A stretch of DNA of 64,000 nt from Candidatus Omnitrophota bacterium. Lineage in GTDB: Bacteria; Omnitrophota; Omnitrophia; Omnitrophales; JACROU01. Below, piece after piece: positions 1 through 62,129 of the stretch (positions are counted from its first letter, which is position 1; each line of letters opens with the position of its first letter). A model generated the notes under the pieces. It was not told the origin of the DNA. It did not search any database and saw only the letters and a list, made by a program, of their open reading frames with translations. The stretch is taken from contig JAJDCD010000008.1 in the NCBI GenBank assembly GCA_029261035.1, forward strand, positions 364,480-428,479, given 5' to 3'. Made by a program: the position numbers and the translations under genes.

Positions 1-335
1 AACAACCACCGCATCAGATTACGCAACAGCTCACCGGTCCAAACGCCTGCACTTTTGATTTCCTTAACCACATATGTAATCATAATTTAACCTTCCTTTC
101 TTTAATATTAATAATCCCAAGGCGAGAACTCCTTGAATTTCCAATCTCCACTTTCAAGCCATTTCTTCCGAGCTTTCTTTTCACGCTCAACTTCAAAAAC
201 TGCAAGGATGAAACACACAAAAATAACCATAAGAAAACAAAACAAGAACTGGCATAAGCGCTCCACCGCAATCACCCCCTTTTGAGATAAAAAAGCGAGA
301 CAGATTAAATACCCGTCCCGCTTTCAATCTCATCT

Positions 336-1010
336 CTACTTATTTGAATCCCTACGATCTAATTCAAACTCAACGCCGAATCCTAAGACCTTCTGACAAA
401 GTATCCGGCCATCTGCCCAATGCTGGGTCTCGCCATCTGAAGAAATCCAAATTTCTTTCTTCAGAATATGTTTGGTAATAATCAAAAAGGCTGTCACAGC
501 AATGTCATATGGCTTGTAAGCCGTTTTGCAAAAATTAAATTGCCATCCGTTTCCATTCTCTTGCGTTGGATGTGAGTCGAAGTAGCAACTGTGATCTTTA
601 GGTACTACTCGCGGAAACCAACAGGTCTCATGACTACAATCTCCAGAGCAAGCTCTTTTATCAATTGTTGCTCCCGCATGCCAAGATCCAGATGCAACAT
701 CCTCAAGCCAAGGTTTCGCAACACCGTTCGCATTCTTTGACGGCCAAGCAATACCAAGTTCATGGGTTGAGGGATGTCCGCAATCCTCTAGGCCATTAAA
801 AGAGATTAGAGTTTGACTTATCTCAGGCTCACCTTTACCATTTCCACCTGCAAGATTGACACCGAGCTGTTCGAAATGCGGCAGAAGCGCACGAAACTTC
901 GAGCCAATTTCTTCATAACTCTTTACTTCAACTTCCTTGTTTTTTCTATACCAATAATGCGTATATCCCATAATCCATATCTCCTTTAAAAAAAATGCGG
1001 AACGCACCAA
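336..1010 (-). CDS. hypothetical protein (Cys/His/Trp-rich, 224 aa; true start may be an internal Met)
   Basis: Long ORF in the same orientation as the neighbouring cargo genes; no recognisable motif. Confidence 0.4.
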   Translation of the reverse strand: MVRSAFFLKEIWIMGYTHYWYRKNKEVEVKSYEEIGSKFRALLPHFEQLGVNLAGGNGKGEPEISQTLISFNGLEDCGHPSTHELGIAWPSKNANGVAKPWLEDVASGSWHAGATIDKRACSGDCSHETCWFPRVVPKDHSCYFDSHPTQENGNGWQFNFCKTAYKPYDIAVTAFLIITKHILKKEIWISSDGETQHWADGRILCQKVLGFGVEFELDRRDSNK

Positions 1011-1103
1011 AGTACGTCCCGCATGAATTGTTGTATTTTGTATTGAATTTATTAAATCTACTTAACCGCTTTGAGAAATTACCACGTCGACGCGGTTCTC
1101 ATT

Positions 1104-1481
1104 TTAGTCCTCACCTTCAAGCATAATTGTAATCACTGGTTCAGCATCATCCCCAGGTCCGCACTTCGCCCACATCTGAACTGGTTTTGGCTTTTTACTA
1201 TCCGGCATCAGAAAAAGCGGAGCAAAGCGAATCACATTACCATTCGTCCTTCGTGCGTATTTTCTGAAAATCATGAGCATATCCCATGATCTGCCTTTTA
1301 AATCCTGACCTGGTGCATCAGTATTATTTAGAATGGCAAAGACACCCTGCGTTACAGCAAGTGGGAACCGAAAGCCCGCCTCTTTTGCCGTATCTGATAA
1401 ATCAATTAATACTCCATCCTCAAGGGCTTCTTGCCTTGTATATCTAAAGACAATATCTGCATCATCAAATAAGTTACTCAT
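1104..1481 (-). CDS. hypothetical protein (125 aa), ICE cargo
   Basis: ORF with AAAGGAGAATAA SD 9 nt upstream of ATG; no family assigned by eye. Confidence 0.55.
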   Translation of the reverse strand: MSNLFDDADIVFRYTRQEALEDGVLIDLSDTAKEAGFRFPLAVTQGVFAILNNTDAPGQDLKGRSWDMLMIFRKYARRTNGNVIRFAPLFLMPDSKKPKPVQMWAKCGPGDDAEPVITIMLEGED

Positions 1482-1557
1482 TCCTTTATTCTCCTTTGTT
1501 GTAAAATTTAAGAACCTTATACTTATTCATTTAATTTTGTGCGGTTGTTCATAAACC

Positions 1558-1968
1558 TCAATACCGCCCCTTTTTCTTATCTTTGTATTTGGACCAATGC
1601 CACACAACGCTTGCGTGATTGACTACAGCACCAATCTTTTCTAAATGTTTACACCGCTCGGCTAACTCAAGCGCAGCTTTCTTACCTTCCTTTGAAAAAG
1701 CATATGCGAAGTCGTAAAGCTCTATCTGTTCGTCTTTCCAAAAAATGCTAGATTTGTAATCAATCGTTAAGTGTTTAATTTCATGGAAGTACGGCTTCTT
1801 GTATTCTTCAGCAACAACCTGTTCATGCAACTTACAGAATTCGTCATTTCCTCTATCATTCAGTAAGCCATTCACAGCATTTTCAACTAACCAAAAATGT
1901 CTTAAGCACAGGTCTTTTCCATCATCTGTTTTTCTTAAAATCTCTATCGCCATTTCACAAGCATTCAT
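1558..1968 (-). CDS. hypothetical protein (136 aa)
   Basis: ORF preceded by TAAGGAGGTG SD at 7 nt. Confidence 0.55.
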   Translation of the reverse strand: MNACEMAIEILRKTDDGKDLCLRHFWLVENAVNGLLNDRGNDEFCKLHEQVVAEEYKKPYFHEIKHLTIDYKSSIFWKDEQIELYDFAYAFSKEGKKAALELAERCKHLEKIGAVVNHASVVWHWSKYKDKKKGRY

Positions 1969-2013
1969 CGTTTAACACCTCCTTAATTTATTGAATTTCA
2001 AAATTCCTTCTTT

Positions 2014-2211
2014 TCAATCTACTCCCTCTCCTGTTTCTGAATATTTAAAAACCATGTAGTAAATCTCATCATCCGTAACACCTTTCGATTTTAGAAAACG
2101 AACGGCTTTTCCTTTTGACTTGAATTCCTTAACTTCTCCATGCTTGTCTAGTAAATATTCCAATCCATTTAGGGTTATTCCATTAATGTGACGTCCAACA
2201 ATAACTGCCAT
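2014..2211 (-). CDS. small hypothetical protein (65 aa)
   Basis: ORF with GAGGAGG SD at ~9 nt. Confidence 0.4.
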   Translation of the reverse strand: MAVIVGRHINGITLNGLEYLLDKHGEVKEFKSKGKAVRFLKSKGVTDDEIYYMVFKYSETGEGVD

Positions 2212-2249
2212 GCCTTAGAACCTCCTCTTAAAAATGAAAAGGGACCACA

Positions 2250-2285
2250 CAAAAAAATGGAGAGCAATTAAGCTCTCCTTGTGCA
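2250..2285 (-). terminator. intrinsic terminator downstream of the JAB gene (end of Ubl-E2-E1-JAB operon)
   Basis: GGAGAGC-aattaa-GCTCTCC hairpin (2259..2278) followed on the minus strand by a U-tract (plus-strand A7 at 2251..2257). Confidence 0.55.
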
Positions 2286-2321
2286 GTCCCTAAGTCTTTA
2301 TTTGTAATCTAAATTGTGTTA

Positions 2322-2978
2322 TTACATCATGCCTTCCGGTGGTAAATCCCTATCTATATCAAGCAGATAACCACATCGGCATTCTTCTGGATAACATAGT
2401 CCGCAGAAATCCTCTTCTTCAGAAAAGATTGTTTCCTCTCGCAGTTTCTTTCTTTTTTTGACTTCAGAAAACAATTCTTCTTTTTCTTCTGTGATTTTTG
2501 AAAAGTCTATGTCTGAGGGGCACCCTAAAAGGTTCAGCCTCAATTTGACATAACCGAATGCCCCACAAGGAAGCTTTGTTTTCTTTGTGGCTTCATAGGT
2601 TCCTTTATTCGAGAGTACGATACTATATTCATACACATTTCTCGCGTGAGCATCGTCTTCAGGCGAATGAAAAGCGTCCATATTATGATGGGAATGCACA
2701 ATTCCGTTTCCGCCAAGTTCCTCTTCGAATTCACAATTAACTGAAGTGACTTGCTGTACCGGAATCTTAAACTCGTCTATCGTCCCGTCTTTTACCCAAA
2801 AAACTCCACCCCATTCCTTATCTCTCATTTGTTGAGAAAGAAAGAGCCACCGACTCCATATCTCCCAAGGAATATCTAGAGTTCCGCGGTTATCTTCATC
2901 AACGCACCAACCGCATTCACCATAGTTTTTCACTTCTATGTCCAGTAGATTGCTGTTCTTGTTATTTTGTAATTTCAT
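2322..2978 (-). CDS. JAB/MPN (JAMM) metallopeptidase, Ubl-processing/deconjugating enzyme
   Basis: JAMM motif H-S-H-x7-S-x2-D (IVHSHHNMDAFHSPEDD). Start re-assigned to the internal ATG at 2978 (MKLQNN...), which overlaps the E1 stop by 17 nt. Confidence 0.8.
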   Translation of the reverse strand: MKLQNNKNSNLLDIEVKNYGECGWCVDEDNRGTLDIPWEIWSRWLFLSQQMRDKEWGGVFWVKDGTIDEFKIPVQQVTSVNCEFEEELGGNGIVHSHHNMDAFHSPEDDAHARNVYEYSIVLSNKGTYEATKKTKLPCGAFGYVKLRLNLLGCPSDIDFSKITEEKEELFSEVKKRKKLREETIFSEEEDFCGLCYPEECRCGYLLDIDRDLPPEGMM

Positions 2979-3912
2979 TTTCTTCTTCCTCCATAGTTTG
3001 ATTTTCTTTCCAGGCCTCAAGCGCAGACTCAAGACTAGAACCTTTGATATCACCAGATTTAATTTGCTCAATGGCATTATTAAATCCTTCCTCTTTACCT
3101 TCCTCTACACCTTCTGCTTTCGATTCGTCCCTTGCTTCGTCCATATCACCTTCCGAATACTGCATTGAACAATCGCCACAATATCCATAGTCGTCTGGAA
3201 TATGTTCATGGATGTTGTCTAGGATGTTTTCCTCTCCGCTTTCAACACCCTCTGCCTGCCCTTTCTCTCTTGCATCATCCAAGATTTTGGGGCAAACATG
3301 AGAGCACCCCTGAGTATGCAGCTTCCCAATATCATCCATAATACAGACTTCTTTGTAGAGCTGTGAGGACACACCCGCTGCGGCCGCTAAGACCGCAGGA
3401 ATTACCCAGGATGGCGTTACCGAATACCCACCCTCCTCTGTTACTTTGTTAAACGATAGAGGGAAAGCTTTTGAAACGTTGAGGATTGTTCCGTCATATC
3501 CTATCCTTTGATAAGGGATCTCATTCTTTTTGCAATAAGCACAAATGATCTGCTGGCTTTTCAAATTATCTGTGCAGCAAAAAACAACTCCCCGGAGAAG
3601 ACTGCAATCACTCGGTTCTTCTATACGCGCTTCCTGCACCTCAATTCTTATAGGGTTCCTTATAGATCTGATGAAGTTGCTTACAACTTCTGTTTTCTTC
3701 ATTCCAACATCACCCTGCGTTAAAGGAAGTCTATTAAGGTTGGAAGTCTCAAGCGTATCCGAGTCCACAAGCACAAGCTCTTTGACCCCCGACATAGCAA
3801 GAAAGATTGCGGTCCAAAACCCCGTCCCGCCACACCCAACAATCGAAACTACTTCAGGAATTTTAATGTCTGTGATTCTATTCTGCCGTTCATAAATCGC
3901 TTCTTGTATCAT
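2962..3912 (-). CDS. ThiF/MoeB-family E1-like adenylyltransferase with acidic Cys4 C-terminal tail
   Basis: Rossmann motif VGCGGTGF and LVLVDSDTLETSNLNRL. Crossover-loop Cys in ICAYCKK. C-terminal CxxxC...CxxC. AGGAGA SD. Confidence 0.85.
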   Translation of the reverse strand: MIQEAIYERQNRITDIKIPEVVSIVGCGGTGFWTAIFLAMSGVKELVLVDSDTLETSNLNRLPLTQGDVGMKKTEVVSNFIRSIRNPIRIEVQEARIEEPSDCSLLRGVVFCCTDNLKSQQIICAYCKKNEIPYQRIGYDGTILNVSKAFPLSFNKVTEEGGYSVTPSWVIPAVLAAAAGVSSQLYKEVCIMDDIGKLHTQGCSHVCPKILDDAREKGQAEGVESGEENILDNIHEHIPDDYGYCGDCSMQYSEGDMDEARDESKAEGVEEGKEEGFNNAIEQIKSGDIKGSSLESALEAWKENQTMEEEENEITK

Positions 3913-3937
3913 TTTAGGTTTTCTCCTTTTGTTTATT

Positions 3938-4543
3938 TTAAAGAAGCTTCTCTATCATCTCTTTTTCGAGAAGCTGGTTAACTTTTATTTCTGACGGGCT
4001 ATCTTTATTTTCGAAGATTTCCTTAAGCTTTTTATTATCATCGGGTAAAAAAACTCCACCCAAAGACTCCATATTAATGATCTTGAATGCTTCTACTATT
4101 CGTGCCGTCTCTTGCTGCAACCCTTCAAAAGACTTTGGCTCACTACACTTAAGATCACCTGTGCATATAGGACGGATATGCTCCCCATCCATCCCAAGAT
4201 AATGGAATCCTATGAGAGGCTCTGCCGTAAAATATCTGAACTTTGCAGAATTATCATAAACTCCATAAACCTTAAAAGGATCATGCGTTATCGGTTGCTT
4301 CAAGATGTAAGTTTTTCCGCGTGAATAGAGCCGGTCTATCCGAAGCTCTCCAACGTATCCTTCTATCAAAACATGCTCACCCTTTAGCGAAAGACAAACA
4401 TCTCCACGAAAAGGTAGATTAAGTACATTTTTCCTAAGATCTTCAGCATATTTATCAATATATTCACGCCAAGAAGCATCCACAGCCATAACCGCTTCAG
4501 AACATTTCTCTGCCTCGCTTATCAGTTGGGTGTCAATCATCAC
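3938..4543 (-). CDS. putative E2-like (UBC-fold) conjugating enzyme
   Basis: FHYLGMDGEHIRPICTGDL resembles the HPN...G.IC.D.L active-site flap of E2s. Positioned between the Ubl and E1 genes. AGGAGG SD. Confidence 0.5.
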   Translation of the reverse strand: MMIDTQLISEAEKCSEAVMAVDASWREYIDKYAEDLRKNVLNLPFRGDVCLSLKGEHVLIEGYVGELRIDRLYSRGKTYILKQPITHDPFKVYGVYDNSAKFRYFTAEPLIGFHYLGMDGEHIRPICTGDLKCSEPKSFEGLQQETARIVEAFKIINMESLGGVFLPDDNKKLKEIFENKDSPSEIKVNQLLEKEMIEKLL

Positions 4544-4565
4544 CTCTTCACCTCCTAGAGTAAAA

Positions 4566-4599
4566 GGGAGGAAGGCAAAAACAACGATGCCTTCCTCCC
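4566..4599 (-). promoter_or_regulatory. perfect 12-bp stem hairpin between the Ubl and E2 genes (attenuator / SD-sequestering element)
   Basis: GGGAGGAAGGCA-N10-TGCCTTCCTCCC. On the mRNA the 3' arm, CCUUCCUCCC, is anti-SD-like and is followed by UUUU and then the E2 SD. Confidence 0.5.
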
Positions 4600-4619
4600 A
4601 AGTTAGTTACTTGCTTCCT

Positions 4620-4856
4620 TTAACAGCCAGGTTTAACGTAACGTTTCACTTCAACCTTGTGCTGACCGAAGGTTTCCGGTAAGCCCGCCGTATCTTGAAG
4701 CTCCGCGCCATTCACTAAGATAGTGAATGAATCAATACCTTTCTCTTCAAGGATTCTTTTCAAAGATTCCTTCACAGGATCGGTCGCGTTTACTTCTACA
4801 TTTTCACCAGCAATATTAATTGTTACTTTGTCGTTTTTAAATTCATTTAGATTCAT
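4620..4856 (-). CDS. ubiquitin-like beta-grasp protein (ThiS/MoaD-like), C-terminus ...KPGC
   Basis: 78-aa product KVTINIAGENVEV...ILVNGAEL...HKVEVKRYVKPGC. Start at ATG 4856 (AGGAGAATAA SD), not the upstream GTG. It is the first gene of the four-gene operon. Confidence 0.6.
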   Translation of the reverse strand: MNLNEFKNDKVTINIAGENVEVNATDPVKESLKRILEEKGIDSFTILVNGAELQDTAGLPETFGQHKVEVKRYVKPGC

Positions 4857-4990
4857 TTTGTTATTCTCCTTTAGTTTTTTTAAATTTAATTTGATACTGC
4901 TTATTTGTACTGCATACTTTTTTTCTGATGGCACCTCCTTTTAAACGAAAAAAGAGAAGCGCGTAATATCGCTTCCCTTTTGATGTTTTG
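4857..4990 (-). repeat. conserved ~110-nt 5' leader cassette, copy 1 (terminator hairpin 4954..4977 + AAGGAGGTG + conserved leader + AGGAGAATAA-ATGAAT)
   Basis: Near-identical in block order and sequence to 7183..7300, which lies upstream of an unrelated gene. Confidence 0.55.
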
Positions 4991-5016
4991 TTTTCTCTCA
5001 CATAAACTAGTGCGTT

Positions 5017-5109
5017 TTACTTCACGACAACATTCCAACCGCGTCTCTCAAATCGCTTAATGAGATGCGCGTATCTTTGCTGATCCTCTTTTCGAATAAT
5101 CAATCGCAT
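5017..5109 (-). CDS. small basic protein, 30 aa (MRLIIRKEDQQRYAHLIKRFERRGWNVVVK)
   Basis: Perfect SD TAAGGAGGTGA 6 nt upstream of ATG. Falls below the ORF-track length cutoff. Confidence 0.35.
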   Translation of the reverse strand: MRLIIRKEDQQRYAHLIKRFERRGWNVVVK

Positions 5110-5211
5110 CAGAATCACCTCCTTAAAAGAAATAAGAGAAGCAGCCCAAGCCACTTCCCTTTAGATTTAAAATCGGAAACAAATTAGTCTCCGTATTTCG
5201 AAACGACTTCT

Positions 5212-6189
5212 TTAGATTTTTGAAACTAAGACCGCTTCATCAAATGCTCTGGACTTAACATTTGCTCCATTTTCAAACCAAATGTTTTTAAGTCGATTCG
5301 TTGGATCTTTTTTGACATTCCTAATGGTGCTTATATGATCCACATACTCAGTCACAGCATTGTAAGCAGCCCATAAAGTCCCTCGAATACCAGGTCTATC
5401 ATTACCGGCACCTTTCTCAAAAAGCTCGACCAGATTAACTTTCTTTTTCTTAAGCCTCGTCGATTCCTCTTCTTGAATAGTTGAATCGACTCCTAAAACT
5501 CTGTCAAAATAGGACTCAACTTGTGATGCACCCAGTGGCTTCCTGACAAAACCTTGGACCAACTCATCAAAACCTGAATAGAAATCTAGCGCTAATCCTA
5601 AAACGCGCCTCGCCTCTCCGACTCTCATGCGGATATTGCCTGAGTGACGAATCGAAACACTACTTTCCGTGTTCTTTAACGAACAATTCAGAGTGTTTTG
5701 GCAAACAACACGGATAGGCGTGAAATACACTTTTAAAGGAGATCTCCCGTTGTGTGTATTGGTAAGACATAAGTATTTTTCCACCACATCATCTCTAAAA
5801 ACAATAGTGTTTTGTGGTAGCTTGGCGAGAAGCCAAATCTGTTCTCCTTTCCCAAGAGCCCCTGCGGTGTGATAAATTGCCTGCCCTTCGCCAACAAGTG
5901 CATCAAAGAAATCGAATGCTTCTTTATTCTGGATCACCGAGTACTTACGCCCGACGATTCCTAAAGGCTCTTTTGTGTCCTGTCTAACCGTTGCAAAAAA
6001 CTTAGGGACTATCCGCTTATTTTCTGCTTCATCTACGGTGTAAACAGAACGTTTTTCGATTTCATAATCGAGTCCTGCTGCAACAATCGCTTCTTGGGCT
6101 GTCGCGGGATGATCCAATTCTGTTCCAATCCCATGCCAAGGTTTCTCTCCGTAATAAAACATTTTGTTTTCATTAATATTGTGCGCCAT
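5212..6189 (-). CDS. DUF932 family protein (phage/plasmid-like, typical ICE/plasmid leading-region gene)
   Basis: N-terminal MFYYGEKPWHGIG signature of DUF932. TGGAGG SD. Confidence 0.8.
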   Translation of the reverse strand: MAHNINENKMFYYGEKPWHGIGTELDHPATAQEAIVAAGLDYEIEKRSVYTVDEAENKRIVPKFFATVRQDTKEPLGIVGRKYSVIQNKEAFDFFDALVGEGQAIYHTAGALGKGEQIWLLAKLPQNTIVFRDDVVEKYLCLTNTHNGRSPLKVYFTPIRVVCQNTLNCSLKNTESSVSIRHSGNIRMRVGEARRVLGLALDFYSGFDELVQGFVRKPLGASQVESYFDRVLGVDSTIQEEESTRLKKKKVNLVELFEKGAGNDRPGIRGTLWAAYNAVTEYVDHISTIRNVKKDPTNRLKNIWFENGANVKSRAFDEAVLVSKI

Positions 6190-6223
6190 GATTGGCCTCC
6201 ATTTTTTTTATTGTAAAAAGAAA

Positions 6224-6251
6224 GGAGAAGCGGTCTAACGACCACTTCTCC
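6224..6251 (-). terminator. terminator-like hairpin between the PC4-like gene and the DUF932 gene
   Basis: GGAGAAG-C-GGTC-taac-GACC-A-CTTCTCC with a U-tract on the minus strand. Confidence 0.45.
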
Positions 6252-6273
6252 CTATGACGAGACTTTGTTTTAT

Positions 6274-6558
6274 TCAAGCCTGTGAAACGTTTGAGCAATT
6301 CAACTTGTCATTATCCTCTTTTACTTCGATTCTTTTTACGGCCTTGCAAAGACGTTCAGCCGCCTTTCGTAATTCCTGCGCTTGGTCTACGGAGAAGGAT
6401 ACACCCTTCTTGGTAGGCAAAAGCGTATGTTCATTATGACTTTGAAACCAAAGCCTCAAATCTATAAAATACTTACCTTTGTATTTCCTGATTGATGCTT
6501 GAATCTCCTCTCCTTTACCTCTTGGAAAACTATAGATAAGACAACTATCTTCCGTCAT
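6274..6558 (-). CDS. PC4/YdbC-like ssDNA-binding protein (single domain)
   Basis: KYKGKYFIDLRLWF...KGVSFSV pattern. Start set at MTEDS (AAGGAGAA SD). Confidence 0.5.
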   Translation of the reverse strand: MTEDSCLIYSFPRGKGEEIQASIRKYKGKYFIDLRLWFQSHNEHTLLPTKKGVSFSVDQAQELRKAAERLCKAVKRIEVKEDNDKLNCSNVSQA

Positions 6559-6648
6559 TTTTTCTCCTTCTCGGTTATTTGATTGACCACAATAAATAAA
6601 AGGGAGGGGCAAATGCATCACCCCTCCCTTCAATTCGAGACAGCACCG

Positions 6649-7182
6649 TTAAGCAGCTACTGTTTCCGCTGCCATTTCAGGTAGCGGACTTAGAAGTGCT
6701 TCCACAATAGCGGGAACAGCAGAATCCAAGATTGAGATTCCACATTTCCCTTTACCTGTACGAAGCTCATCGGTTTCCTCTGCGGTGAAGAAGAATTGGA
6801 CACGTACAGCTTGATTGTCCTTTCCTCTTGTTTTTTTGATTCCGTAAAAGTTCTTACCTGGAATCTCAACCATTTGAGAAGAACCTTGCGTAAACGGCTC
6901 CTTTCCTTCCTCAGGTTTTGGAAGTTCTGGAGCTGCTTTTGCCGCCATCATAAAAGCTGCAACTTGAGGGCAAGCGTCTTCTCGCAACTTAATCATGTCA
7001 TCAGAAGCGACGAAACTCTTACCATCCTTGCTTTCAAAATAGCGTTGGACGATTCGATACTGAACTCCTTCCTTATCATCCTTCCAGAGTCGCACTCGAT
7101 AAACATTCTTCTCTGAACGAGGAACCTCTGCAATTACCTTATTTTGACTTTCGTTACTTTTGTTTTCTTTGTTTGTATTCAT
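6649..7182 (-). CDS. tandem PC4-like ssDNA-binding protein (two domains)
   Basis: VYRVRLWKDDKEGVQYRIVQRYF...GKSFV and a second VRVQFFFTAEETDELRTGKGKCGISI repeat. Confidence 0.55.
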   Translation of the reverse strand: MNTNKENKSNESQNKVIAEVPRSEKNVYRVRLWKDDKEGVQYRIVQRYFESKDGKSFVASDDMIKLREDACPQVAAFMMAAKAAPELPKPEEGKEPFTQGSSQMVEIPGKNFYGIKKTRGKDNQAVRVQFFFTAEETDELRTGKGKCGISILDSAVPAIVEALLSPLPEMAAETVAA

Positions 7183-7300
7183 TGTTTTATTCTCCTTAGT
7201 TTTTTTAATTTAATTTGAATTACTTATCTGAACTGCTAGTTTTTTCTCTTGTTATCACCTCCTTAAAATAAAAAAGAGAAGCGGGCTAATAATTCCGGCT
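7183..7300 (-). repeat. conserved ~110-nt 5' leader cassette, copy 2
   Basis: Aligns block-by-block with 4857..4990: cttctcTTTTTT-AAGGAGGTG-AGAAAAAA-GCAGT-ATAAG-CAAATTAAATT-AAAAAAACTAAGGAGAATAA-ATGAAT. Confidence 0.55.
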
Positions 7301-7408
7301 TCTCTAAACTGTTTTGAACTTTATTTAAAAGTAAAGTTCGGTGAATATTTCAGGTTGATCAAATATTTCATTTAATATCACCTCATCCATAAAATATCTC
7401 CTTTCGCA

Positions 7409-7455
7409 ATAAAAAAGGGGAAGACTCCGAGTCAAAACGACTCAAAATCTTCCCC
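7409..7455 (-). terminator. intrinsic terminator downstream of the coupling-protein gene
   Basis: GGGGAAGA-CTCC-GAGTC-aaaac-GACTC-aaaa-TCTTCCCC nested hairpin followed by U6 on the minus strand. Confidence 0.6.
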
Positions 7456-7500
7456 TTATGATTTAATTATATTCTTATGTATAAAGCTCGAACGGCTAAG

Positions 7501-9336
7501 TTACTTTGATTTCTTTCTCAAATTCTGAACCTCCTCTAATGTAGTCATTGCTTCATCATCATTGTCAAGAATTGGTGTTTTTCTAAATTGTTTTCGTGGG
7601 TTTTTTGGAACCGCTCTCTTTTGTTTTCTTTCAGACGAATCTTTTTTATTAAAAGGTTGGGTGTAACTTACATGACCAAAGAAATCTAGCTTTACATGGT
7701 CTGTATGAAACTCAGGCGTCTTCCAAATCACGGCTGCTTCACCACGTTTAAGTCCGCGAATAAGGTCCGGTTCAATTCTAAATGTTTGTCCTTCTCGCAC
7801 TGATCCCTGCCCTGTAAATCCTTTCCCAAGCATATCCTCTTTTGTTTGATATGTATTGATCATTGTCTTGCGTGTTCCTGCTATTTTCACAAAACGTTCA
7901 ATAGAGAACGGATCGTCCTGTCTTAAAATAATTTTTGTATTTGTATTTTCAAGACACTGCTGCTGAAATCCAGGGGCATTACGAAACTGAAGATCCCCAA
8001 GTGACTGTAAATACATTGCAATCGCAAATCGACTTGCCCGTCCCTTGCTCAAAAGTGTGACGAAATTGCTATCAAGAAAGTCAGTTGCATCGTCAATGTG
8101 AATTCCAAAGAAGTGACGTTTACGTGCTGGCAATTCAGCTTGAATATAACTTGATACAGACCTGATACTTTGAATGATCATTCGCCCCAAACGCCTACTT
8201 GAGTCAGTGTATTTTTGAAGATCAAGGCTGAAGTAAGCAATCGAGTTCCGCTCGTACAGAGTTTGTATATCAATATCGGGCACATCAACATCCATAAGAT
8301 CTGAAAACTCACTTCGTGACATAAGATGAAGGTCTGCAATAAGCCCGCTCAAAAACCTGCGCGACTCCTTAAAATGATCCGCCATTTTCTCAAGATCATT
8401 TTTTATAACATAGTCTTTCGTTTCAGATTGAAGTCGTTGCAGTGCATTAAGATCAGTTAAATAACCATGAATTTCTCGGAACTTTGGAGCTCTGCCCGTC
8501 GACACAATCGCATTAAAAATCGTAAGAGCTGCTTGTTCACACATCTTTTTGTAAAACTCTTCGGTCCAAATCTGTGAGTTAATCAGCATCGAAGTAAGTT
8601 CAGTTGCATTTGCGCCTTCCGCTCTAAAAAACGGATTAAAGGTATTGGACTCTTTTACGTGATTTAGTGAGAAGTAGTAAAAATCATCCACGCGGCCCGT
8701 TTCTTCGACAATCCAGCGAAGCTTATCATAGAGTTCAAGATCACCTTTACCGTCAATGATAATCATGCCCTTCCCATGAGCAATGTCGTGAGCTACGGCT
8801 GGAAGCATGACTGACTCGCTTTTCCCACTTCCCGTGCTACCGACCACAAGCGTATGCATTTCCCTTTGATCATTCGTAAGATGAAGTGGCTTTCCAGTTT
8901 TTAAACTTTGTCCCAAATATGACTTGAAGTAATTTGACTCAAGTCGTGGATACCTCATTTTGTTTAAGCTGGGCTCTCTTTTCTGCCGCTCTTTTTTAAG
9001 ATTCTCTGAGTCAGGATTAAGATGCACAACTGCAAAAAAGAAGGGTAAGCTAACAGCTAAATAAACTCCGTAATACACACTCAATTTAATCCAAATAGCT
9101 GTTTGGCCTTCAATTCTCATTGCCTCATCTAGCCAATCAAAAATCTGATGCATGCTCAAAAAAAACGCAGCCGCAACAAACACTGAAACCGCAATTAATA
9201 AATACTTAAGTGCGGGGCTCCCAGATCGATCTGCTAGATTTATTAACGCTCGCGAGAAGCTAAGTGGTATCCTCACGAATGTTCCACCCAATACTTTTAG
9301 AAAGAACGATTCCCGTGATTGTGAAGGCTTATTCAT
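7501..9336 (-). CDS. traD: type IV coupling protein (TraD/TraG/VirD4 family) for conjugative DNA transfer
   Basis: N-terminal TM segments, Walker A VVGSTGSGKS, Walker B-like IHIDDATDF, 611 aa. Confidence 0.85.
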   Translation of the reverse strand: MNKPSQSRESFFLKVLGGTFVRIPLSFSRALINLADRSGSPALKYLLIAVSVFVAAAFFLSMHQIFDWLDEAMRIEGQTAIWIKLSVYYGVYLAVSLPFFFAVVHLNPDSENLKKERQKREPSLNKMRYPRLESNYFKSYLGQSLKTGKPLHLTNDQREMHTLVVGSTGSGKSESVMLPAVAHDIAHGKGMIIIDGKGDLELYDKLRWIVEETGRVDDFYYFSLNHVKESNTFNPFFRAEGANATELTSMLINSQIWTEEFYKKMCEQAALTIFNAIVSTGRAPKFREIHGYLTDLNALQRLQSETKDYVIKNDLEKMADHFKESRRFLSGLIADLHLMSRSEFSDLMDVDVPDIDIQTLYERNSIAYFSLDLQKYTDSSRRLGRMIIQSIRSVSSYIQAELPARKRHFFGIHIDDATDFLDSNFVTLLSKGRASRFAIAMYLQSLGDLQFRNAPGFQQQCLENTNTKIILRQDDPFSIERFVKIAGTRKTMINTYQTKEDMLGKGFTGQGSVREGQTFRIEPDLIRGLKRGEAAVIWKTPEFHTDHVKLDFFGHVSYTQPFNKKDSSERKQKRAVPKNPRKQFRKTPILDNDDEAMTTLEEVQNLRKKSK

Positions 9337-10139
9337 AAAATTTTCTTGAGTTTAAAGCTTGCCGCTTTATTCTCAAAGATTGCCCCCTCTCGCTCATTCA
9401 TCAATTCCTTGTAAGTCGTCATCCAAACCTGCTTGATATCGTAATCAAGCGCGGTTACTAGCCAATCTTTAATCTCTCCTTTGATGATCACAAAAAGCAG
9501 TGGATAAAGCTGATGGGACCAATAGTAATTCATCATCCCCTGATACCGCTTTTTACTCTTTGAGAGATTATGATTTTCAAATTCAATCGCAGCTCGCTTA
9601 TCTCCTCCAAAATGAATGATCCCATCCGGTCGCGGACCACTCCGGTGATTGCCGTATCTCAAAACCCGCTCACTCTCCCAATCATCAAGTCCAAGATCCC
9701 TAAAAAGAATCCTGAGATTGGTTACGTGCAAATCATGATCAATATGCCGATCAAAAGATTCTGTTGGCTCATAAAGGTCAAGCTTTGAATCTGTTCCTCT
9801 CTCTTTGAGAATCTCATATGATTTCTGTGTCACAAAATAGACATCAAGGCAAAGTCGCCCTGAATAGCCTTTTTCTAAATATCCAGCATTCACTAGTTTT
9901 TCTACTCGTTTGTAACAGGCTTTAGCATCCAGTGAGTTTTCTTTCCAAAAAGCTTCTCTGATCTGGCTGTATGCCAAGTAACGATGTTCATGTGCATACC
10001 GAAATAACTCAATATCTCGGTTTGTTAAAACAAGAGGACTCGCGTCCTCATCAAGCGATTTCGTTTCACTAATTTTTACTATTTCATCAACCACAAATAA
10101 ACCTCCAAAAAGATTGATCGCAGACTTTTTGGGAGGCAT
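9333..10139 (-). CDS. replication-relaxation family protein (putative relaxase-like)
   Basis: Size and motif pattern resemble the Replic_Relax family. 4-nt overlap with the downstream T4CP gene. Confidence 0.5.
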   Translation of the reverse strand: MPPKKSAINLFGGLFVVDEIVKISETKSLDEDASPLVLTNRDIELFRYAHEHRYLAYSQIREAFWKENSLDAKACYKRVEKLVNAGYLEKGYSGRLCLDVYFVTQKSYEILKERGTDSKLDLYEPTESFDRHIDHDLHVTNLRILFRDLGLDDWESERVLRYGNHRSGPRPDGIIHFGGDKRAAIEFENHNLSKSKKRYQGMMNYYWSHQLYPLLFVIIKGEIKDWLVTALDYDIKQVWMTTYKELMNEREGAIFENKAASFKLKKIL

Positions 10140-11815: not shown

Positions 11816-12892
11816 TTAAGCTGATTTACGTATTACTAATTCAGGATTAAACTTATGTCTAGCTACTCCTGAATGGCTAAATTTCCCCTCAGATATCTCA
11901 ATTAAAAATTCACCTGCCTTATGGCCCATTTCCTTCAAGGGCTGCCTGATGGTAGTCAAAGGCGGATCGGTAAATTGACTTTCCGAATATCCATCAAAAC
12001 CAATTACTGAGACTTCCTTGGGACATTTAATACCCTTTTCACTGAGGTACTCTAGGACTCCTTTGGCAAGTGTATCGTTAGAACAAATCACCGCATCTGG
12101 ATTGTCGTTACCATTAAAAAGTTCAGAAGCTTTTTTATAGCCTTCTTCCACAACATAGCAAGCACTGTCCTTAATCCAGTTTTTCCTTATCTGAAAACCG
12201 CTTAATGCCATCGCTTTTTCAAAGCCTCTAAATTTGTCCCGCGAGTCGATTGATTCAATACTCGTTTGAAACTCGTCCCTTCCAATCCTGTTATGCATTG
12301 GTCCTTTCAAAAAGGCAATTTTCCGCTTACCTTTGTCAGATAAATAACCAACTGCCTTTGCCATACCTTCACCAACATCACAATAAGCAAAATGAGTACA
12401 GACCGACTTCTCAAAGTCATTGATTAAAATTATCGGAAAAGGTTTAGATACCGATTCTACAAGCTTGATTAAATTAGGGTGACTCCGCCACGTCAAAACA
12501 ATAAGTCCGTCAATCAAATACTTTTGAAGAAACCGTCTGATATTTTGATACCCATCATCGCGAACTGGAATCAACCGAATCTCATAGTCTGAGTTCTCCA
12601 TCGCTCCCATAATTCCAGAAAGCACGCCTCTGTGATACGGTGACTCGAATAAATCCGCTGAGTACGGCACAAGAACACCAAAGACACCTGTCTGATATTT
12701 ACGCTTTTTTGCATTTCTTTTCTCAGGCGTAAATTCATGTCCCTCAACAACAGGGCGTATTTTTTCGCGAGTCTCAGTTCGTAGCCTGTCGCGCTCAACA
12801 GGATTAAAATAACGTGAAACAGAGGCCTTTGAAACACCTGCTTCTCTGGCAATGGATTCTTCGGTAATTTTCATTTCGTATAACATCCCCAT
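11816..12892 (-). CDS. LacI-family transcriptional regulator
   Basis: HTH IAREAGVSKASVSRYFN plus a periplasmic-binding-fold effector domain. Confidence 0.8.
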   Translation of the reverse strand: MGMLYEMKITEESIAREAGVSKASVSRYFNPVERDRLRTETREKIRPVVEGHEFTPEKRNAKKRKYQTGVFGVLVPYSADLFESPYHRGVLSGIMGAMENSDYEIRLIPVRDDGYQNIRRFLQKYLIDGLIVLTWRSHPNLIKLVESVSKPFPIILINDFEKSVCTHFAYCDVGEGMAKAVGYLSDKGKRKIAFLKGPMHNRIGRDEFQTSIESIDSRDKFRGFEKAMALSGFQIRKNWIKDSACYVVEEGYKKASELFNGNDNPDAVICSNDTLAKGVLEYLSEKGIKCPKEVSVIGFDGYSESQFTDPPLTTIRQPLKEMGHKAGEFLIEISEGKFSHSGVARHKFNPELVIRKSA

Positions 12893-13179
12893 TTTCCAAA
12901 TTTGGAGTTTCTGAAACTCTGTGGAATTTCTGAAACTCTAAGTTTAACGTAACATATCCACACAAGAAATCAAGGGACGTCCGATAACTTTTTCGGGAAT
13001 TTTCTATCAAGAAATAGTCTTATTAAAATCGGAGTTTATCACCTAAATTTGAACTACCTATTAAGAAGAAAGATAAACAAACGCAAAAGAAAGGCTATTT
13101 GGGAAGGGTGTTTTTTTTGTAAAAAAGTGGCTATTTTGGGTGAGAATTACGACATTTTTATGCTATGTTTATGAACTTT

Positions 13180-34292: not shown

Positions 34293-35471
34293 TTAAACGT
34301 TTTCATAATTCTTCGATATTCTCTCTTCCCACTTAAGCAATCTTTCATTCCCAGGCATGTGCCTAAGAGCACCCTTAAGGACTTTAAGAGCTTCCACACT
34401 TGAACCTTTTTCAACAAAAGTAACTGCAAGCCCAATATAGCCATCTACATAATCGGGCTTTGCGACAATAATCATCCTATATAATTGAATAGCTTTATTA
34501 AAGTGCTTAAGGTTGCGATGAGCTTCCGCCAAGAGAAAGTCTAAATTATTTTTTTCAGGAAAAAGGAATTTTAATACATCGAGTATTTTAAGTGCTTTAT
34601 CATAATCTTCATTATCCATATAGGCTATGGATAGCTGAGACATAAAGTCAAGATCCCTCACACCCTTAAGAAACATATCTTCAAGAATCTTAATTGCAGC
34701 TTTTTTTTCATTATTTCTCAACTTCATGATGGCAAGGTTAAACCGCGCCACCCTATTTTCCATATCTTCTGAAGAAAGCGCCTCAAAGATTTCATAGGCT
34801 TCATCAGCATCTCCTTTTTTTGCATATAATTGCCCCAGCAACATCCGCGCTTCTTGATTCTCAGGCATGAGCTTAAGCGCAACCTCAAAATCGTTAATAG
34901 CCGATTCAAACTTCCCTATTCTTGCATAAGCCCTCCCACGGGCAAGCCAGGCGTGGACATCCACAGGGTCTACTTCAAGAGATGTATTAAGTTCGTTAAT
35001 AGCTTCATTGTATTCTCCCACCTGATACAACATAAGCGCTGAAAAACAATGCAAGTGGGGCTCGTTTGATTCTATGGCAACGGCTCTCTGATAAAAATAA
35101 TTCGCTTCCGAAGGCTGTTTAAGTATCCGGTATAAATGTCCTAAGGTAACTAGAGAATCCACATCCTCTGGGTTCTCCACAATCTTTTGGTTTAAACTAA
35201 TAATCATCTTGTTCAAGCCACCTTCCTCATCATATCGAGGGATCATGAAAGCAATTTCGAATAGATCATCTAGCGTCTGGTGATATTGTTCAAAGCTAGC
35301 ATAACTCGCGCCCGGATTATTCAATGCCACTTGTGCGCTTTTAGGCTCTGTGATTTGTTCATATCCAAACGCTAAACTGGCATTGCCACTAACTAAAACA
35401 AATAGGGTGAGGAACCCAGCAAAGCAGTGACTACTATTAGAAGATCTTGTTCTTTTCATTGTTAGAACCAA
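34293..35471 (-). CDS. TPR-repeat protein with signal peptide
   Basis: Multiple TPR-like repeats. Confidence 0.6.
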   Translation of the reverse strand: MVLTMKRTRSSNSSHCFAGFLTLFVLVSGNASLAFGYEQITEPKSAQVALNNPGASYASFEQYHQTLDDLFEIAFMIPRYDEEGGLNKMIISLNQKIVENPEDVDSLVTLGHLYRILKQPSEANYFYQRAVAIESNEPHLHCFSALMLYQVGEYNEAINELNTSLEVDPVDVHAWLARGRAYARIGKFESAINDFEVALKLMPENQEARMLLGQLYAKKGDADEAYEIFEALSSEDMENRVARFNLAIMKLRNNEKKAAIKILEDMFLKGVRDLDFMSQLSIAYMDNEDYDKALKILDVLKFLFPEKNNLDFLLAEAHRNLKHFNKAIQLYRMIIVAKPDYVDGYIGLAVTFVEKGSSVEALKVLKGALRHMPGNERLLKWEERISKNYENV

Positions 35472-57542: not shown

Positions 57543-57679
57543 AGTGATCTCACTGCAAAAATAGTTCGTGTCATTAATTATTAGCCCAATTTATTTTCCT
57601 CATTATATACCACCCTCTAGTGTTCGGAAAATGATCATTTAAACAGGTTAGATTTATCGAGGTAAGAATCGTCCATCTT

Positions 57680-58228
57680 TTAGGGGCTATTTGGCATTTC
57701 AAGCTTGTCCAATATTTCACGAAATCTAGCTAGCTGTAACCTCTCATCACCCAGTTTTACAATTTCAAGTAATCGACGGAGATGAAAATGTTTGACAATT
57801 TGAGGAAAGGGATTTTTTGTGAGAACTTCACGTATCCCCTGAGGAAGATTTAGGATTCGCAGAAGCTTAGCGATATAGGACCAATCCTCCCCTGTCATCT
57901 CAGCTAATTGGCGGATACTTGAAGCACCTGTTGACTCCATCAATCGCTTGAAATATTCAGCTTTTTTTATGGGATTATTCTCAAGGCGCTTTTGAAAAAT
58001 TCTGTGTTTTTGAAGATCTTTTTGGGTGGGAATCAAGCCGGTTTTAAGGCTATTTGGTCGGTCCTCAAGAACAAAAACTCTTTTACCTGACTTGTAAATG
58101 CTATAGAATGATTCAAAATAATCAAACGAACGGGAAATCGCTACTTGGGAAATTAGTTCGTCGAGCGTCCGAGTGGGGACCCCATATAAAAAAAGCCATC
58201 CAAAACGGATGGCTTTTTTTATGCCCAT
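57680..58228 (-). CDS. HTH protein with ParB/KorB-like C-terminal region (N-terminus uncertain, possibly truncated)
   Basis: SIRQLAEMTGEDWSYIAKLLRILNLPQGIREVL. The listed ATG start translates the terminator hairpin, so the true 5' end is unclear. Confidence 0.35.
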   Translation of the reverse strand: MGIKKAIRFGWLFLYGVPTRTLDELISQVAISRSFDYFESFYSIYKSGKRVFVLEDRPNSLKTGLIPTQKDLQKHRIFQKRLENNPIKKAEYFKRLMESTGASSIRQLAEMTGEDWSYIAKLLRILNLPQGIREVLTKNPFPQIVKHFHLRRLLEIVKLGDERLQLARFREILDKLEMPNSP

Positions 58229-61861: not shown

Positions 61862-62129
61862 TTAGACAAAGTCCCCTTTGGGTAAAGGATACCATATTAA
61901 ATTATATTGTAGAAATACCCAAAAATTACCCGCCGCGTGAGAGTCTGCCTAGTATACCCACTACCCCCGGGGTACCCCCGAAAGCAAGTTTGATAAGAAT
62001 TGTAAGGTCTGAAATAAAAGGGCTTATTAGGTCTATTAGGAGGCTAAAACGGGTATGTTCATAGGGATACTTAAGGAAAATTGTTTTAAGCTACGTTGAG
62101 GAAATAGGTTCTAAGTTCATCTAGACAGT

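What the first reader, a model, noticed from the sequence alone, without database searches (positions are those of the whole stretch)
2322..4856. Complete Ubl - E2 - E1 - JAB ubiquitin-like conjugation operon embedded in a conjugative element
Four co-directional, tightly spaced genes encode the components of a protein-tagging system. First, a 78-aa beta-grasp protein (ThiS/MoaD-like). Second, a protein whose FHYLGMDGEHIRPICTGDL segment matches the E2 active-site flap. Third, a ThiF/MoeB E1 with the Rossmann motif, a crossover-loop Cys and Cys4 zinc site. Fourth, a JAMM peptidase with an intact HxH-x7-S-x2-D motif. The E1 and JAB genes overlap by 17 nt, and the operon has its own terminator (2250..2285). 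This composition corresponds to the recently described bacterial Ubl-conjugation antiphage operons (Bil/Bub-type). The gene order here is Ubl-E2-E1-JAB. The operon sits inside the leading-region-like part of an ICE, so it could act as defence cargo. It could equally be an element-encoded counter-defence that tags host or phage proteins.
Basis: partly seen in the sequence, partly recalled or inferred. Interest (0 to 1): 0.75.

Follow-up and report, generated by a model that had tools for sequence, protein, structure and literature searches.

The report
Unannotated ubiquitin-like tagging operon on ICE
Four tightly packed genes inside a conjugative element encode a small ubiquitin-like protein, a cysteine-bearing E2-like protein, a minimal E1 activating enzyme and a JAMM peptidase; this rare operon family, carried by mobile elements and one large phage, resembles known bacterial ubiquitin-like systems but belongs to none of them.

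Summary
They are Ubl (4856..4620), an E2-like protein (4540..3938), E1 (3912..2962) and JAB (2978..2322, overlapping E1 by 17 nt). Terminators bound the operon. The same gene order recurs in every related locus whose contig is long enough.

Confirmed:
- The E1 has a ThiF adenylation domain (Pfam 9e-26).
- The JAB has an intact, invariant E...HxH-x7-S-x2-D motif.

Wrong: ICAYCKK is not the crossover loop. No family member has a Cys between residues 128 and 189, the segment where that loop falls. This copy has no complete Cys4 site.

It is not Bil (its E1 lacks the IAD-AAD-CYS architecture), Bub, PRTRC or CBASS. Relatives sit in conjugative elements and in a 139-kb phage that carries di-Ubl precursor genes near the Apyc1 anti-defence gene. 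I call it a new variant of a known kind. Whether it serves defence or counter-defence is unresolved.

The parts
4620..4856 (-). Ubl gene, 78 aa pro-form: a beta-grasp protein ending ...RYVKPG-C, with predicted mature C-terminus Gly77
4567..4598 (-). Intercistronic 11-bp GC-rich hairpin (GGAGGAAGGCA...UGCCUUCCUCC) followed by CUUUUAC, lying between the Ubl and E2-like genes
   Evidence: The 81-nt intergenic stretch containing it folds at -29.3 kcal/mol, z -3.15. A comparable 11-18 bp hairpin is present at the same place in all 17 close loci examined, although the sequence differs. Six of 10 consensus pairs show compensatory changes. It is probably an attenuator or an mRNA-stabilising element that raises Ubl relative to the enzymes; this role is inferred.
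3938..4540 (-). E2-like protein (200 aa from the ATG, 201 from the GTG at 4543). It has invariant Cys126 (ICTGD) and near-invariant His113 (GFHYLG) in the loop between the beta-meander and the following helix
2962..3912 (-). Minimal single-domain E1 (ThiF-type adenylation domain, about residues 1-200) plus a C-terminal CxxC element and an acidic helical tail
   Evidence: Pfam ThiF 9e-26. The closest solved relatives are MccB, PaaA, TcdA, UBA5, ThiF and MoeB. Invariant residues are G26-x-G28-G29-x-G31, D50, N58-L-N-R61, K73 and D115. There is no Cys at residues 128-189. G162-Y163 and T166-P-S-W169 are invariant in the predicted crossover loop.
2322..2978 (-). JAMM/JAB metallopeptidase (218 aa) with a short C-terminal Cys cluster (CGLCYPEECRC)
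   Evidence: Pfam Prok-JAB 5e-6, above the gathering score. E55, H95-S-H97, S105 and D108 are invariant. Homologues carry long C-terminal arrays of CxxC motifs that are truncated in this copy.
2259..2278 (-). Intrinsic terminator closing the operon (7-bp GC stem followed by ATTTTTTT)
   Evidence: the 86-nt stretch containing it folds at -33.1 kcal/mol, z -6.6.
4950..4981 (-). Terminator-like hairpin upstream of the Ubl gene. It marks the 5' boundary of the operon and closes the small upstream ORF

Best explanation
This is a self-contained ubiquitin-like protein-conjugation module carried by mobile elements: conjugative elements and at least one large phage.

Proposed mechanism:
1. The 78-aa pro-Ubl is trimmed by the JAMM peptidase after the invariant Gly77. 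This step is inferred.
2. The minimal, probably homodimeric, ThiF-type E1 adenylates Gly77 with ATP. The adenylation residues are present; the activity is inferred.
3. This E1 has no cysteine in its crossover loop. The activated Ubl therefore passes to the invariant Cys126 of the 200-aa E2-like protein, either directly or through an oxyester on the invariant crossover-loop Tyr163, as in Bub E1s. This step is inferred.
4. The E2-like protein is the fastest-diverging component and no E3 gene is present. It probably selects the targets and transfers the Ubl to their lysines. This step is inferred.
5. The JAMM peptidase can also reverse the mark.
6. A conserved hairpin after the Ubl gene probably keeps Ubl in excess over the enzymes.

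Because the cassette travels with ICE backbones and phage early or anti-defence neighbourhoods, it most likely acts for the element. It would do so by tagging host or competitor proteins during establishment or infection, not as a housekeeping pathway of the host.
For: - Beta-grasp Ubl.
- Ubl C-terminus: invariant RYVKxG plus 0-3 variable residues. Tandem di-Ubl genes with VKAG at each junction occur in a phage relative. Both are hallmarks of a processed, C-terminally activated modifier.
- ThiF domain with all adenylation motifs invariant.
- Intact, invariant JAMM motif.
- The four genes co-occur in the same order in close loci. The four proteins also co-occur in distant loci, with the same order in L025 and L026.
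- Mean identity to the window, my own average of the per-locus identities over 11 complete loci: Ubl about 64%, E1 about 60%, JAB about 58%, E2-like about 46%.
- E1 has no Cys at residues 128-189 and has an invariant Tyr163. Bub E1 uses a crossover-loop Tyr (PMC11601596).
- Mobile-element context: the window is syntenic with L020, running T4CP, cassette, DUF6573, TrbC, VirB4. TraU, TraH and TraF, integrases, restriction-modification genes, RadC, SpoVG and LPD28 lie near other copies. One copy is in IMG/VR phage contig UViG_3300025010_000002, with Apyc1 and NAD-salvage genes nearby.
- Conserved intercistronic hairpin.
Against: - No biochemical data exist for any member.
- The crossover-loop assignment rests on an hhalign alignment to ThiF and MoeB sequences I recalled from memory. 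That alignment has low confidence in this segment.
- The targets and the direction of benefit (element or host) are not shown.
- The window copy has shortened Cys-rich tails on both E1 and JAB compared with most homologues. This could mean reduced function.
- No promoter was identified.
Confidence: 0.6

Rival explanations
1. The biochemistry is the same, but the operon is defence cargo, as in Bil. The ICE or prophage host tags proteins of incoming phages or rival plasmids, such as virion or transfer proteins, to block them.
For: - Bil operons with the same four activities protect against phage by Ubl-tagging a tail protein (PMC11601596; PMC11601603).
- Some copies sit beside restriction-modification genes, AbiEii, SIR2, nSTAND or SMC-like ATPases.
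- Mobile elements often carry defence genes.
Against: - No defence-library model matches the Ubl, E2-like or JAB proteins.
- The E1 architecture differs from Bil.
- No CapW/BrxR or CapH/CapP-like regulators were seen next to the cassette.
- In the ICE backbone the operon occupies a fixed slot between the coupling-protein gene and the T4SS genes, among DUF932, PC4, RadC and DUF6573-type genes, and not in the cargo region.
- A lytic-looking 139-kb phage carries it next to the anti-defence gene Apyc1.
Confidence: 0.3
2. The 200-aa protein is not an E2. As in archaeal SAMP/UbaA/JAMM1 or Thermus TtuB/TtuC, the E1 alone would activate and transfer the Ubl. The 200-aa protein would then be an adaptor, a dedicated substrate or an unrelated cysteine enzyme.
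For: - There is no sequence-profile or Foldseek link to UBC proteins.
- The single-domain E1 weakly resembles UbaA (NF047750, 2.4e-14).
- E2-independent Ubl conjugation is established for SAMPs (my own knowledge).
Against: - The gene is always present, always between the Ubl and E1 genes, and co-evolves with them.
- It has an invariant Cys and a near-invariant His 13 residues upstream, in an E2-like position.
- The E1 lacks a crossover-loop Cys that could carry the Ubl itself.
Confidence: 0.15
3. The system is a sulfur-carrier or peptide C-terminal modification pathway (ThiS/MoaD-, MccB- or PaaA-like) that makes a small molecule, not a protein tag.
For: The best sequence matches of the E1 among solved structures are MccB, PaaA, TcdA, ThiF and MoeB. 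The Ubl fold also matches MoaD and ThiS.
Against: - No partner synthase, sulfurtransferase, rhodanese or export gene is in any of the loci.
- The Ubl ends in a single Gly with a variable tail, not Gly-Gly.
- Poly-Ubl precursors occur.
- A JAMM peptidase and a Cys-bearing E2-like protein are always present.
- Copies sit in mobile elements and a phage.
Confidence: 0.07

Closest known systems
Bil (bacterial ISG15-like) operons, Type I/II: BilA Ubl, BilB E2, BilC JAB, BilD E1
   Same: It has the same four activities as separate genes and no E3. The Ubl has a C-terminal Gly, and the JAB can act as processing and deconjugating enzyme. The distribution is sparse and mobile.
   Different: [quoted passage not shown] Here the E1 is 316 aa with one adenylation domain and no crossover Cys. 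The Ubl, E2-like and JAB proteins match no defence-library model. The gene order is Ubl-E2-E1-JAB. The E1 and JAB carry Cys-rich C-terminal tails.
Bub (6E/DUF6527) operons: BubA/B/C/D/E
   Different: There is no DUF6527 (BubE) gene and there are no Ubl-E2, JAB-E1 or E2-E1 fusions. The E2-like protein keeps an invariant Cys, where Bub E2 uses a Ser/His dyad. Chemistry running entirely through oxyesters is therefore unlikely here.
PRTRC cassette (ParB-related, ThiF-related; TIGR03734-03742) of plasmids and ICEs
   Same: It is a small ThiF-type E1 with a JAB-like protein in a multi-gene cassette on conjugative elements. These are the only named mobile-element cassette models that gave any hit: PRTRC_ThiF at 2e-4 and PRTRC_A at 7e-3.
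   Different: The scores are far below the curated cut-offs (20.6 against 144.75, and 15.9 against 101.8). There is no ParB. None of the four cassette proteins or six neighbours scanned hit any other PRTRC model.
Operon class 6d of Iyer, Burroughs and Aravind 2006 (Ub-like, JAB, E1-like, E2-like, on mobile elements)
   Same: The gene content is the same and so is the predicted logic. That paper predicted this kind of system, including carriage on conjugative elements and possible addiction or defence roles (PMC1779556).
   Different: In 6d the E2 lacks the upstream His and has a conserved His C-terminal to the Cys. 6d also has a fifth alpha-helical protein, and its JAB has an N-terminal Arg/Trp domain. 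Here the His lies 13 residues upstream of the Cys, there is no fifth gene, and none of the Pfam Prok-E2 or Prok_Ub models derived from that work matches.
Archaeal SAMP / UbaA / HvJAMM1 and Thermus TtuB / TtuC
   Same: These also combine a single-domain MoeB/ThiF-type E1, a small beta-grasp modifier and a JAMM peptidase.
   Different: Those systems have no E2 and double as sulfur carriers with Gly-Gly termini. Here a Cys-bearing E2-like gene is obligatory and the context is a mobile element.

Membership tests
Beta-grasp / ubiquitin-like fold (78-aa protein) | bb-a-bb-(3-10)-b fold that matches known Ubls | tested here: met
Conjugatable Ubl | Conserved C-terminal Gly, either exposed or followed by a removable tail | tested here: met
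   Invariant RYVKxG followed by 0-3 variable residues in 26 homologues. Di-Ubl precursors with VKAG at both repeat ends occur in a phage relative.
ThiS/MoaD sulfur carriers | Match to ThiS/MoaD models, a Gly-Gly terminus and partner synthase genes | tested here: not met
   No ThiS, MoaD or Prok_Ub hit. The terminus is a single Gly. No biosynthetic partner gene is in any locus.
E1 / ThiF adenylating enzymes | ThiF domain with the nucleotide-binding GxGxxG, the Arg finger and the Mg-binding Asp | tested here: met
   PF00899 at 90.9 bits against a gathering score of 28.1. GCGGTG, NLNR61 and CTD115N are invariant.
Canonical E1 (thioester-forming) | Catalytic Cys in the crossover loop or in an inserted Cys domain | tested here: not met
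   No Cys at residues 128-189 in any of 15 homologues. ICAYCKK aligns with the helix after the DN motif. The loop position rests, which is low confidence in that segment.
UBC/E2 superfamily (200-aa protein) | Sequence match to UQ_con or Prok-E2 models | tested here: not met
   No Pfam hit at E up to 10 for 19 close members and up to 1 for 56 distant members. hhalign against a UbcH5 profile gives probability 0.2.
UBC/E2 superfamily (200-aa protein) | UBC fold: N-terminal helix, 4-strand meander, active-site loop and C-terminal helices | tested here: inconclusive
UBC/E2 superfamily (200-aa protein) | Catalytic Cys in the loop before helix 2, with a conserved His about 10 residues upstream | tested here: met
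   Cys126 is invariant and His113 is at least 90% conserved in 68 sequences. Both lie in the coil at residues 114-137 of the model.
JAMM/JAB metallopeptidase | E...HxH-x7-S-x2-D | tested here: met
   PF14464 scores above the gathering score. E55, H95, H97, S105 and D108 are invariant.
Bil operon | E1 (BilD) with tandem IAD-AAD domains and a mobile CYS domain | tested here: not met
   One ThiF domain in 316 aa and no Cys domain. The definition comes from PMC11601596.
Bub operon | DUF6527 (BubE) gene and fused Ubl-E2 / JAB-E1 or E2-E1 genes | tested here: not met
   There are four separate genes. No DUF6527 was found among the operon or neighbour proteins.
Bub operon | E2 catalytic Ser (oxyester) in place of Cys | tested here: not met
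   Cys126 is invariant.
PRTRC cassette | NCBIfam equivalog scores for PRTRC_ThiF and PRTRC_A-F, plus a ParB | tested here: not met
   20.6 against a cut-off of 144.75, and 15.9 against 101.8. None of the ten proteins scanned hit any other PRTRC model.
Type II CBASS (Cap2/Cap3) | E2-E1 fusion next to a CD-NTase and an effector | tested here: not met
   PADLOC E1-E2 models match only the Rossmann part of the E1, residues 21-136. There is no CD-NTase. A true example is shown for contrast.
Leading region of a conjugative element | Position next to oriT on the side that enters the recipient first | not testable with these tools
   No relaxase or oriT was identified in the window. Only the neighbours DUF932, PC4-like and DUF6573 are suggestive.

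The most novel reading that the evidence does not exclude
Mobile elements (ICEs and large phages) deploy their own ubiquitin-like conjugation machinery offensively. They would tag host immunity or housekeeping proteins during establishment or infection, as a counter-defence or takeover weapon. The chemistry would be a hybrid: an E1 without a catalytic cysteine, possibly using a Tyr oxyester as Bub does, hands the Ubl to a highly diverged Cys-E2 that evolves fast to track its targets.
Probability: 0.3. Interest if true: 0.85.

Novelty: new variant of a known kind. Interest (0 to 1): 0.6.

Why it matters
Bacterial ubiquitin-like conjugation has so far been characterised in three operon families: type II CBASS, Bil and Bub. 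All three are read as host immunity. This cassette is a fourth, compact arrangement, and its Ubl and E2-like proteins match no model in Pfam, NCBIfam, PADLOC or PHROGs. It is rare: 101 representatives at 50% identity among 1.84 billion. It is concentrated in uncultivated lineages, mostly Omnitrophota MAGs.

It travels in a fixed slot of ICE backbones and in a phage, beside a known anti-defence gene. If the tag is used by the element against the host, it would be a bacterial case of what eukaryotic viruses do to host ubiquitination. The Cys-less E1 paired with a Cys-bearing E2-like protein would also help show how thioester and oxyester relays evolved. The system is small, four genes in 2.5 kb, and can be tested directly by co-expression.

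Tried and rejected
- Pfam, NCBIfam, PADLOC and PHROG scans of the Ubl and E2-like proteins gave nothing usable. This includes 19 close and 56 distant E2-like relatives and 26 Ubl relatives.
- A profile search of the E2-like family against PDB sequences gave only chance hits, E 0.3 or worse.
- Foldseek of the E2-like model against the PDB found no E2. The afdb50 library was unavailable.
- hhalign of the E2-like profile against a UbcH5 alignment gave probability 0.2. That alignment was narrow, because the database search returned only near-identical UBE2D proteins. It is therefore a weak negative.
- blastn of the region against plasmids found nothing.
- tblastn of the E1 against plasmids found only MoeB, ThiF and CBASS Cap2, so I could not obtain a PRTRC locus for a direct profile comparison.
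- tblastn of the E2-like proteins against GenBank phages found nothing.
- The close E2-like family (A1) and the distant member P0141 found nothing in IMG/VR. Only the distant member P0175 did.
- No Rfam family in window 1-10000 and no tRNA anywhere in the window. No convincing sigma-70 promoter upstream of the Ubl gene.
- The leading-region literature does not mention ThiF, JAB, ubiquitin or DUF932.
- I rejected ICAYCKK as the catalytic or crossover Cys.
- I rejected QGCSHVCP as a zinc motif, because its first Cys is not conserved.
- The source organism was not identified.
Full report
**The sequence.** All genes of the region are on the minus strand. Reading that strand gives the following layout.
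- A terminator-like hairpin at 4981..4950 closes a small upstream ORF.
- The Ubl gene lies at 4856..4620 (78 aa), with RBS AAAGGAGA 8 nt before the ATG.
- An 11-bp GC-rich hairpin lies at 4598..4567.
- The E2-like gene lies at 4540..3938 (200 aa; a GTG at 4543 would add one residue).
- The E1 gene lies at 3912..2962 (316 aa).
- The JAB gene lies at 2978..2322 (218 aa) and overlaps E1 by 17 nt.
- A strong terminator at 2278..2259 closes the operon.

The same four products, at 78, 200, 316 and 218 aa, exist as exact entries in a public protein collection. They come from an NCBI contig of 465,966 bp, and no source gives them a name.

**The Ubl.** No Pfam, NCBIfam, PADLOC or PHROG model matches it. 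Relaxed Pfam scans of 26 homologues give only sub-threshold hits. A few of those are to beta-grasp families, and none is to ThiS, MoaD or Prok_Ub.
- An AF2 model built on 26 homologues has pLDDT 79 and the secondary-structure order bb-a-bb-b.
- The family has 66 clusters at E up to 1e-3. Every member ends in an invariant R-Y-V-K-x-G, followed by nothing, or by C, VAR, NQS, IHS or VR.
- A distant relative in a phage contig has two genes that each encode two Ubl repeats head to tail. Each repeat ends ...VKAG, and the next residues are AQLS, AEMS, RQ or ICLG.

An invariant Gly followed by a disposable tail, together with poly-Ubl precursors, is what is expected of a modifier that is processed and then activated at its C-terminus.

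**The E1.** Pfam ThiF matches at 9e-26 over residues 22-134. Among solved structures the nearest are single-domain, homodimer-type enzymes: MccB, PaaA, TcdA, UBA5, ThiF and MoeB. Bub E1 scores lower. Across 15 homologues the nucleotide loop G26-x-G-G-x-G31, D50, N58-L-N-R61, K73 and C-T-D115-N are invariant.

It is therefore not the crossover loop.

I ran hhalign of the family against ThiF and MoeB, using sequences I recalled from memory. It gave probability 97.6 overall but low confidence after residue 145.
- It places the crossover loop at about residues 150-170.
- No homologue has any Cys between residues 128 and 189.
- G162-Y163 and T166-P-S-W169 are invariant there.

Bub E1s likewise lack a crossover Cys and use an invariant crossover-loop Tyr as the nucleophile (PMC11601596).

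After the adenylation domain, most homologues have two CxxC motifs, and two have three. The window copy and its closest relative L020 keep only one, YGYCGDC. QGCSHVCP is not conserved. The 'Cys4 zinc site' is therefore not intact in this copy.

**The JAB.** Pfam Prok-JAB scores 26.8 bits against a gathering score of 25. In 15 homologues E55 (KEWGG), H95-S-H97, S105 and D108 are invariant. The JAMM motif is thus complete. Most homologues have a long C-terminal array of CxxC motifs. The window copy has only CGLCYPEECRC.

**The 200-aa protein.** This is the weak point of the interpretation.
- The family is small: 19 clusters by word-seeded search and 101 representatives by exhaustive profile search of 1.84 billion proteins.
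- No Pfam or NCBIfam family matches any of 19 close or 56 distant members. PADLOC and PHROGs, scanned with the window copy only, gave nothing either.
- A profile search of PDB sequences gives only chance hits.
- hhalign against a narrow UbcH5 alignment gives probability 0.2.
- Foldseek of the AF2 model (pLDDT 78) against the PDB finds nothing.

Several observations point the other way.
- The model's order of elements is that of a UBC core: an N-terminal helix, a 4-5 strand meander, a long loop, a helix and further C-terminal helices.
- Across 68 sequences that are 17-65% identical to the window copy, the only invariant residue is Cys126 (ICTGD). His113 (GFHYLG), Pro83 and Ser159 are at least 90% conserved.
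- Both Cys126 and His113 lie in the loop between the meander and the next helix. This mirrors the HPN...Cys arrangement of E2s.

I treat it as E2-like, with the fold unproven.

**Conservation of the cassette.** tblastn and blastp on fetched loci show Ubl, E2-like, E1 and JAB in that order in every locus that is long enough: L002, L005, L007-L009, L011, L012, L014-L017, L020 and L021. In L003 a transposase separates E1 from JAB fragments that lie about 1.5 kb downstream.

Loci reached through distant E2-like relatives (L025-L029) also encode clear homologues of the other three proteins. Against HMMs of the close family, E1 scores 1e-76 to 1e-92, JAB 1e-32 to 1e-69 and Ubl 1e-17 to 1e-36. The E2-like gene sits directly upstream of E1, with JAB after it. 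In L027 and L028 the Ubl genes lie nearby but not adjacent.

I averaged the per-locus identities to the window over 11 complete loci. They come to about 64% for Ubl, 60% for E1, 58% for JAB and 46% for the E2-like protein. The E2-like protein is thus consistently the fastest-diverging part. That fits a role in target choice, and no E3 gene is present.

**A conserved RNA feature.** In all 17 close loci examined, the 60-93 nt between the Ubl and E2-like genes contains an 11-18 bp GC-rich hairpin. Its 5' arm is purine-rich and its 3' arm pyrimidine-rich. A short U/A stretch and the RBS of the next gene follow it. The sequences differ, and 6 of 10 consensus pairs show compensatory changes. In the window the 81-nt intergenic stretch containing the hairpin folds at -29.3 kcal/mol, z -3.15. 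I infer a partial terminator or 3'-stabilising element that raises Ubl relative to the enzymes.

**Context.** In the window the operon lies downstream of a 611-aa protein that is 75% identical to a PF02534 coupling protein of L020. Between them are a PC4-like protein, a DUF932/TIGR03299 protein and a small ORF. DUF6573 lies downstream.

L020 is syntenic. Its LacI, a 155-aa and a 268-aa protein and the T4CP are 55-78% identical to the window's, and its DUF6573 is 66% identical. It continues into TrbC, VirB4 and a TraJ-like gene. The cassette therefore occupies a fixed slot of an ICE backbone between the coupling-protein gene and the T4SS genes.

The rest of the window is metal-resistance cargo (P-type ATPases and RND efflux systems), followed by WD40, LRR, KAP and TPR proteins.

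Other copies lie near the following genes.
- Integrases, RadC, SpoVG and a type III restriction-modification system with a resolvase.
- LPD28.
- TraU, TraH, TraF, DUF6876, AbiEii and a methylase with Vsr.

Most genome hits are Omnitrophota MAGs.

Distant copies sit in rows of tiny co-directional ORFs. One is in a 139-kb IMG/VR viral contig, next to NAD-salvage genes, an HNH gene and the anti-Pycsar gene Apyc1.

Whether the operon lies in the leading region cannot be said, because no relaxase or oriT was found.

**Comparison with known systems.**
- Bil operons have the same four activities, but their E1 has IAD-AAD-CYS architecture (PMC11601596). That feature is not met here.
- Bub operons need DUF6527 and fused genes and use a Ser in the E2. 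These features are not met, although the Cys-less E1 with an invariant Tyr is shared.
- PRTRC models give only sub-threshold hits.
- Type II CBASS has an E2-E1 fusion with a CD-NTase. That is not met.
- Class 6d of Iyer et al. 2006 predicted mobile Ubl/JAB/E1/E2 operons in general. It describes a different E2 motif, with the His after the Cys, and a fifth protein.
- SAMP/UbaA/JAMM systems lack an E2.

The operon is therefore a new variant of a known kind.

**Function.** The most likely biochemistry is Ubl conjugation through E1 adenylation and an E2-like Cys126 thioester. JAB would act as the maturase and the eraser.

The biological role is open. The fixed backbone position in ICEs, the establishment-type neighbours and the phage copy beside anti-defence genes lean towards a function for the element, such as counter-defence, takeover or competition. 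A Bil-like defence role remains a serious rival.

I found no paper describing this family or any mobile-element-encoded Ubl conjugation used as counter-defence.

Noticed in passing
L028:2310-2813 and L028:11266-11787 (also present on L029, IMG/VR UViG_3300025010_000002): A 139-kb phage contig encodes two di-Ubl ('polyubiquitin-like') precursor genes of this Ubl family, and each repeat ends VKAG. It also has a third, divergent single Ubl. Its E2-like/E1/JAB genes lie beside a MIB_HERC2-domain protein, the anti-Pycsar gene Apyc1, and NAPRTase with NAD synthase.
   Followed up: partly
window 4567-4598 and the equivalent intergenic regions of L002-L021: A GC-rich hairpin between the Ubl and E2-like genes is conserved as a structure, not as a sequence, in all 17 close loci. 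It may be an attenuator or an mRNA-stability element.
   Followed up: partly
window 5017-5109 (minus strand): A 30-aa ORF (MRLIIRKEDQQRYAHLIKRFERRGWNVVVK) has a strong RBS (AAGGAGGTG). It sits between two terminator-like hairpins (5161..5134 and 4981..4950), just upstream of the operon. Its function is unknown.
   Followed up: no
window 14310-43648: This stretch is heavy-metal resistance cargo. It holds two P-type ATPases (one with HMBD repeats), two RND efflux systems with HlyD_D23/HMBD adaptors and OEP outer-membrane factors, and an SBF (ACR3-like) transporter. A LacI-family regulator at 11816-12892 is shared with L020.
   Followed up: partly
window 34293-35471 and 55605-63986: Several genes encode repeat or NTPase proteins: a 1115-aa WD40 protein, an LRR protein, a KAP-family P-loop NTPase and a TPR protein. 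This content is typical of symbionts or of conflict systems. The source organism was not identified.
   Followed up: no
JAB homologues, e.g. L014:11531-12343, L016:11529-12335, L021:9832-10656; E1 homologues L007 and L011: Both enzymes carry variable C-terminal arrays of CxxC motifs. The JAB has up to about seven and the E1 has one to three. Both arrays are shortened in the window copy. They may be zinc modules for partner or target binding, possibly E3-like.
   Followed up: partly
window 1-64000: Every large ORF is on the minus strand, and GC skew is negative in all 32 windows of 2 kb. This suggests one long co-oriented block on a single replichore.
   Followed up: no
window 1104-1481, 5212-6189, 6274-6633; L020:8400-8912, 8997-9440, 12629-13006: The operon's flanks hold small genes of the kind often found on mobile elements: DUF6573, DUF932/TIGR03299 and a PC4-like ssDNA-binding domain. 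In the syntenic element L020 a RadC gene takes the place of DUF932.
   Followed up: partly
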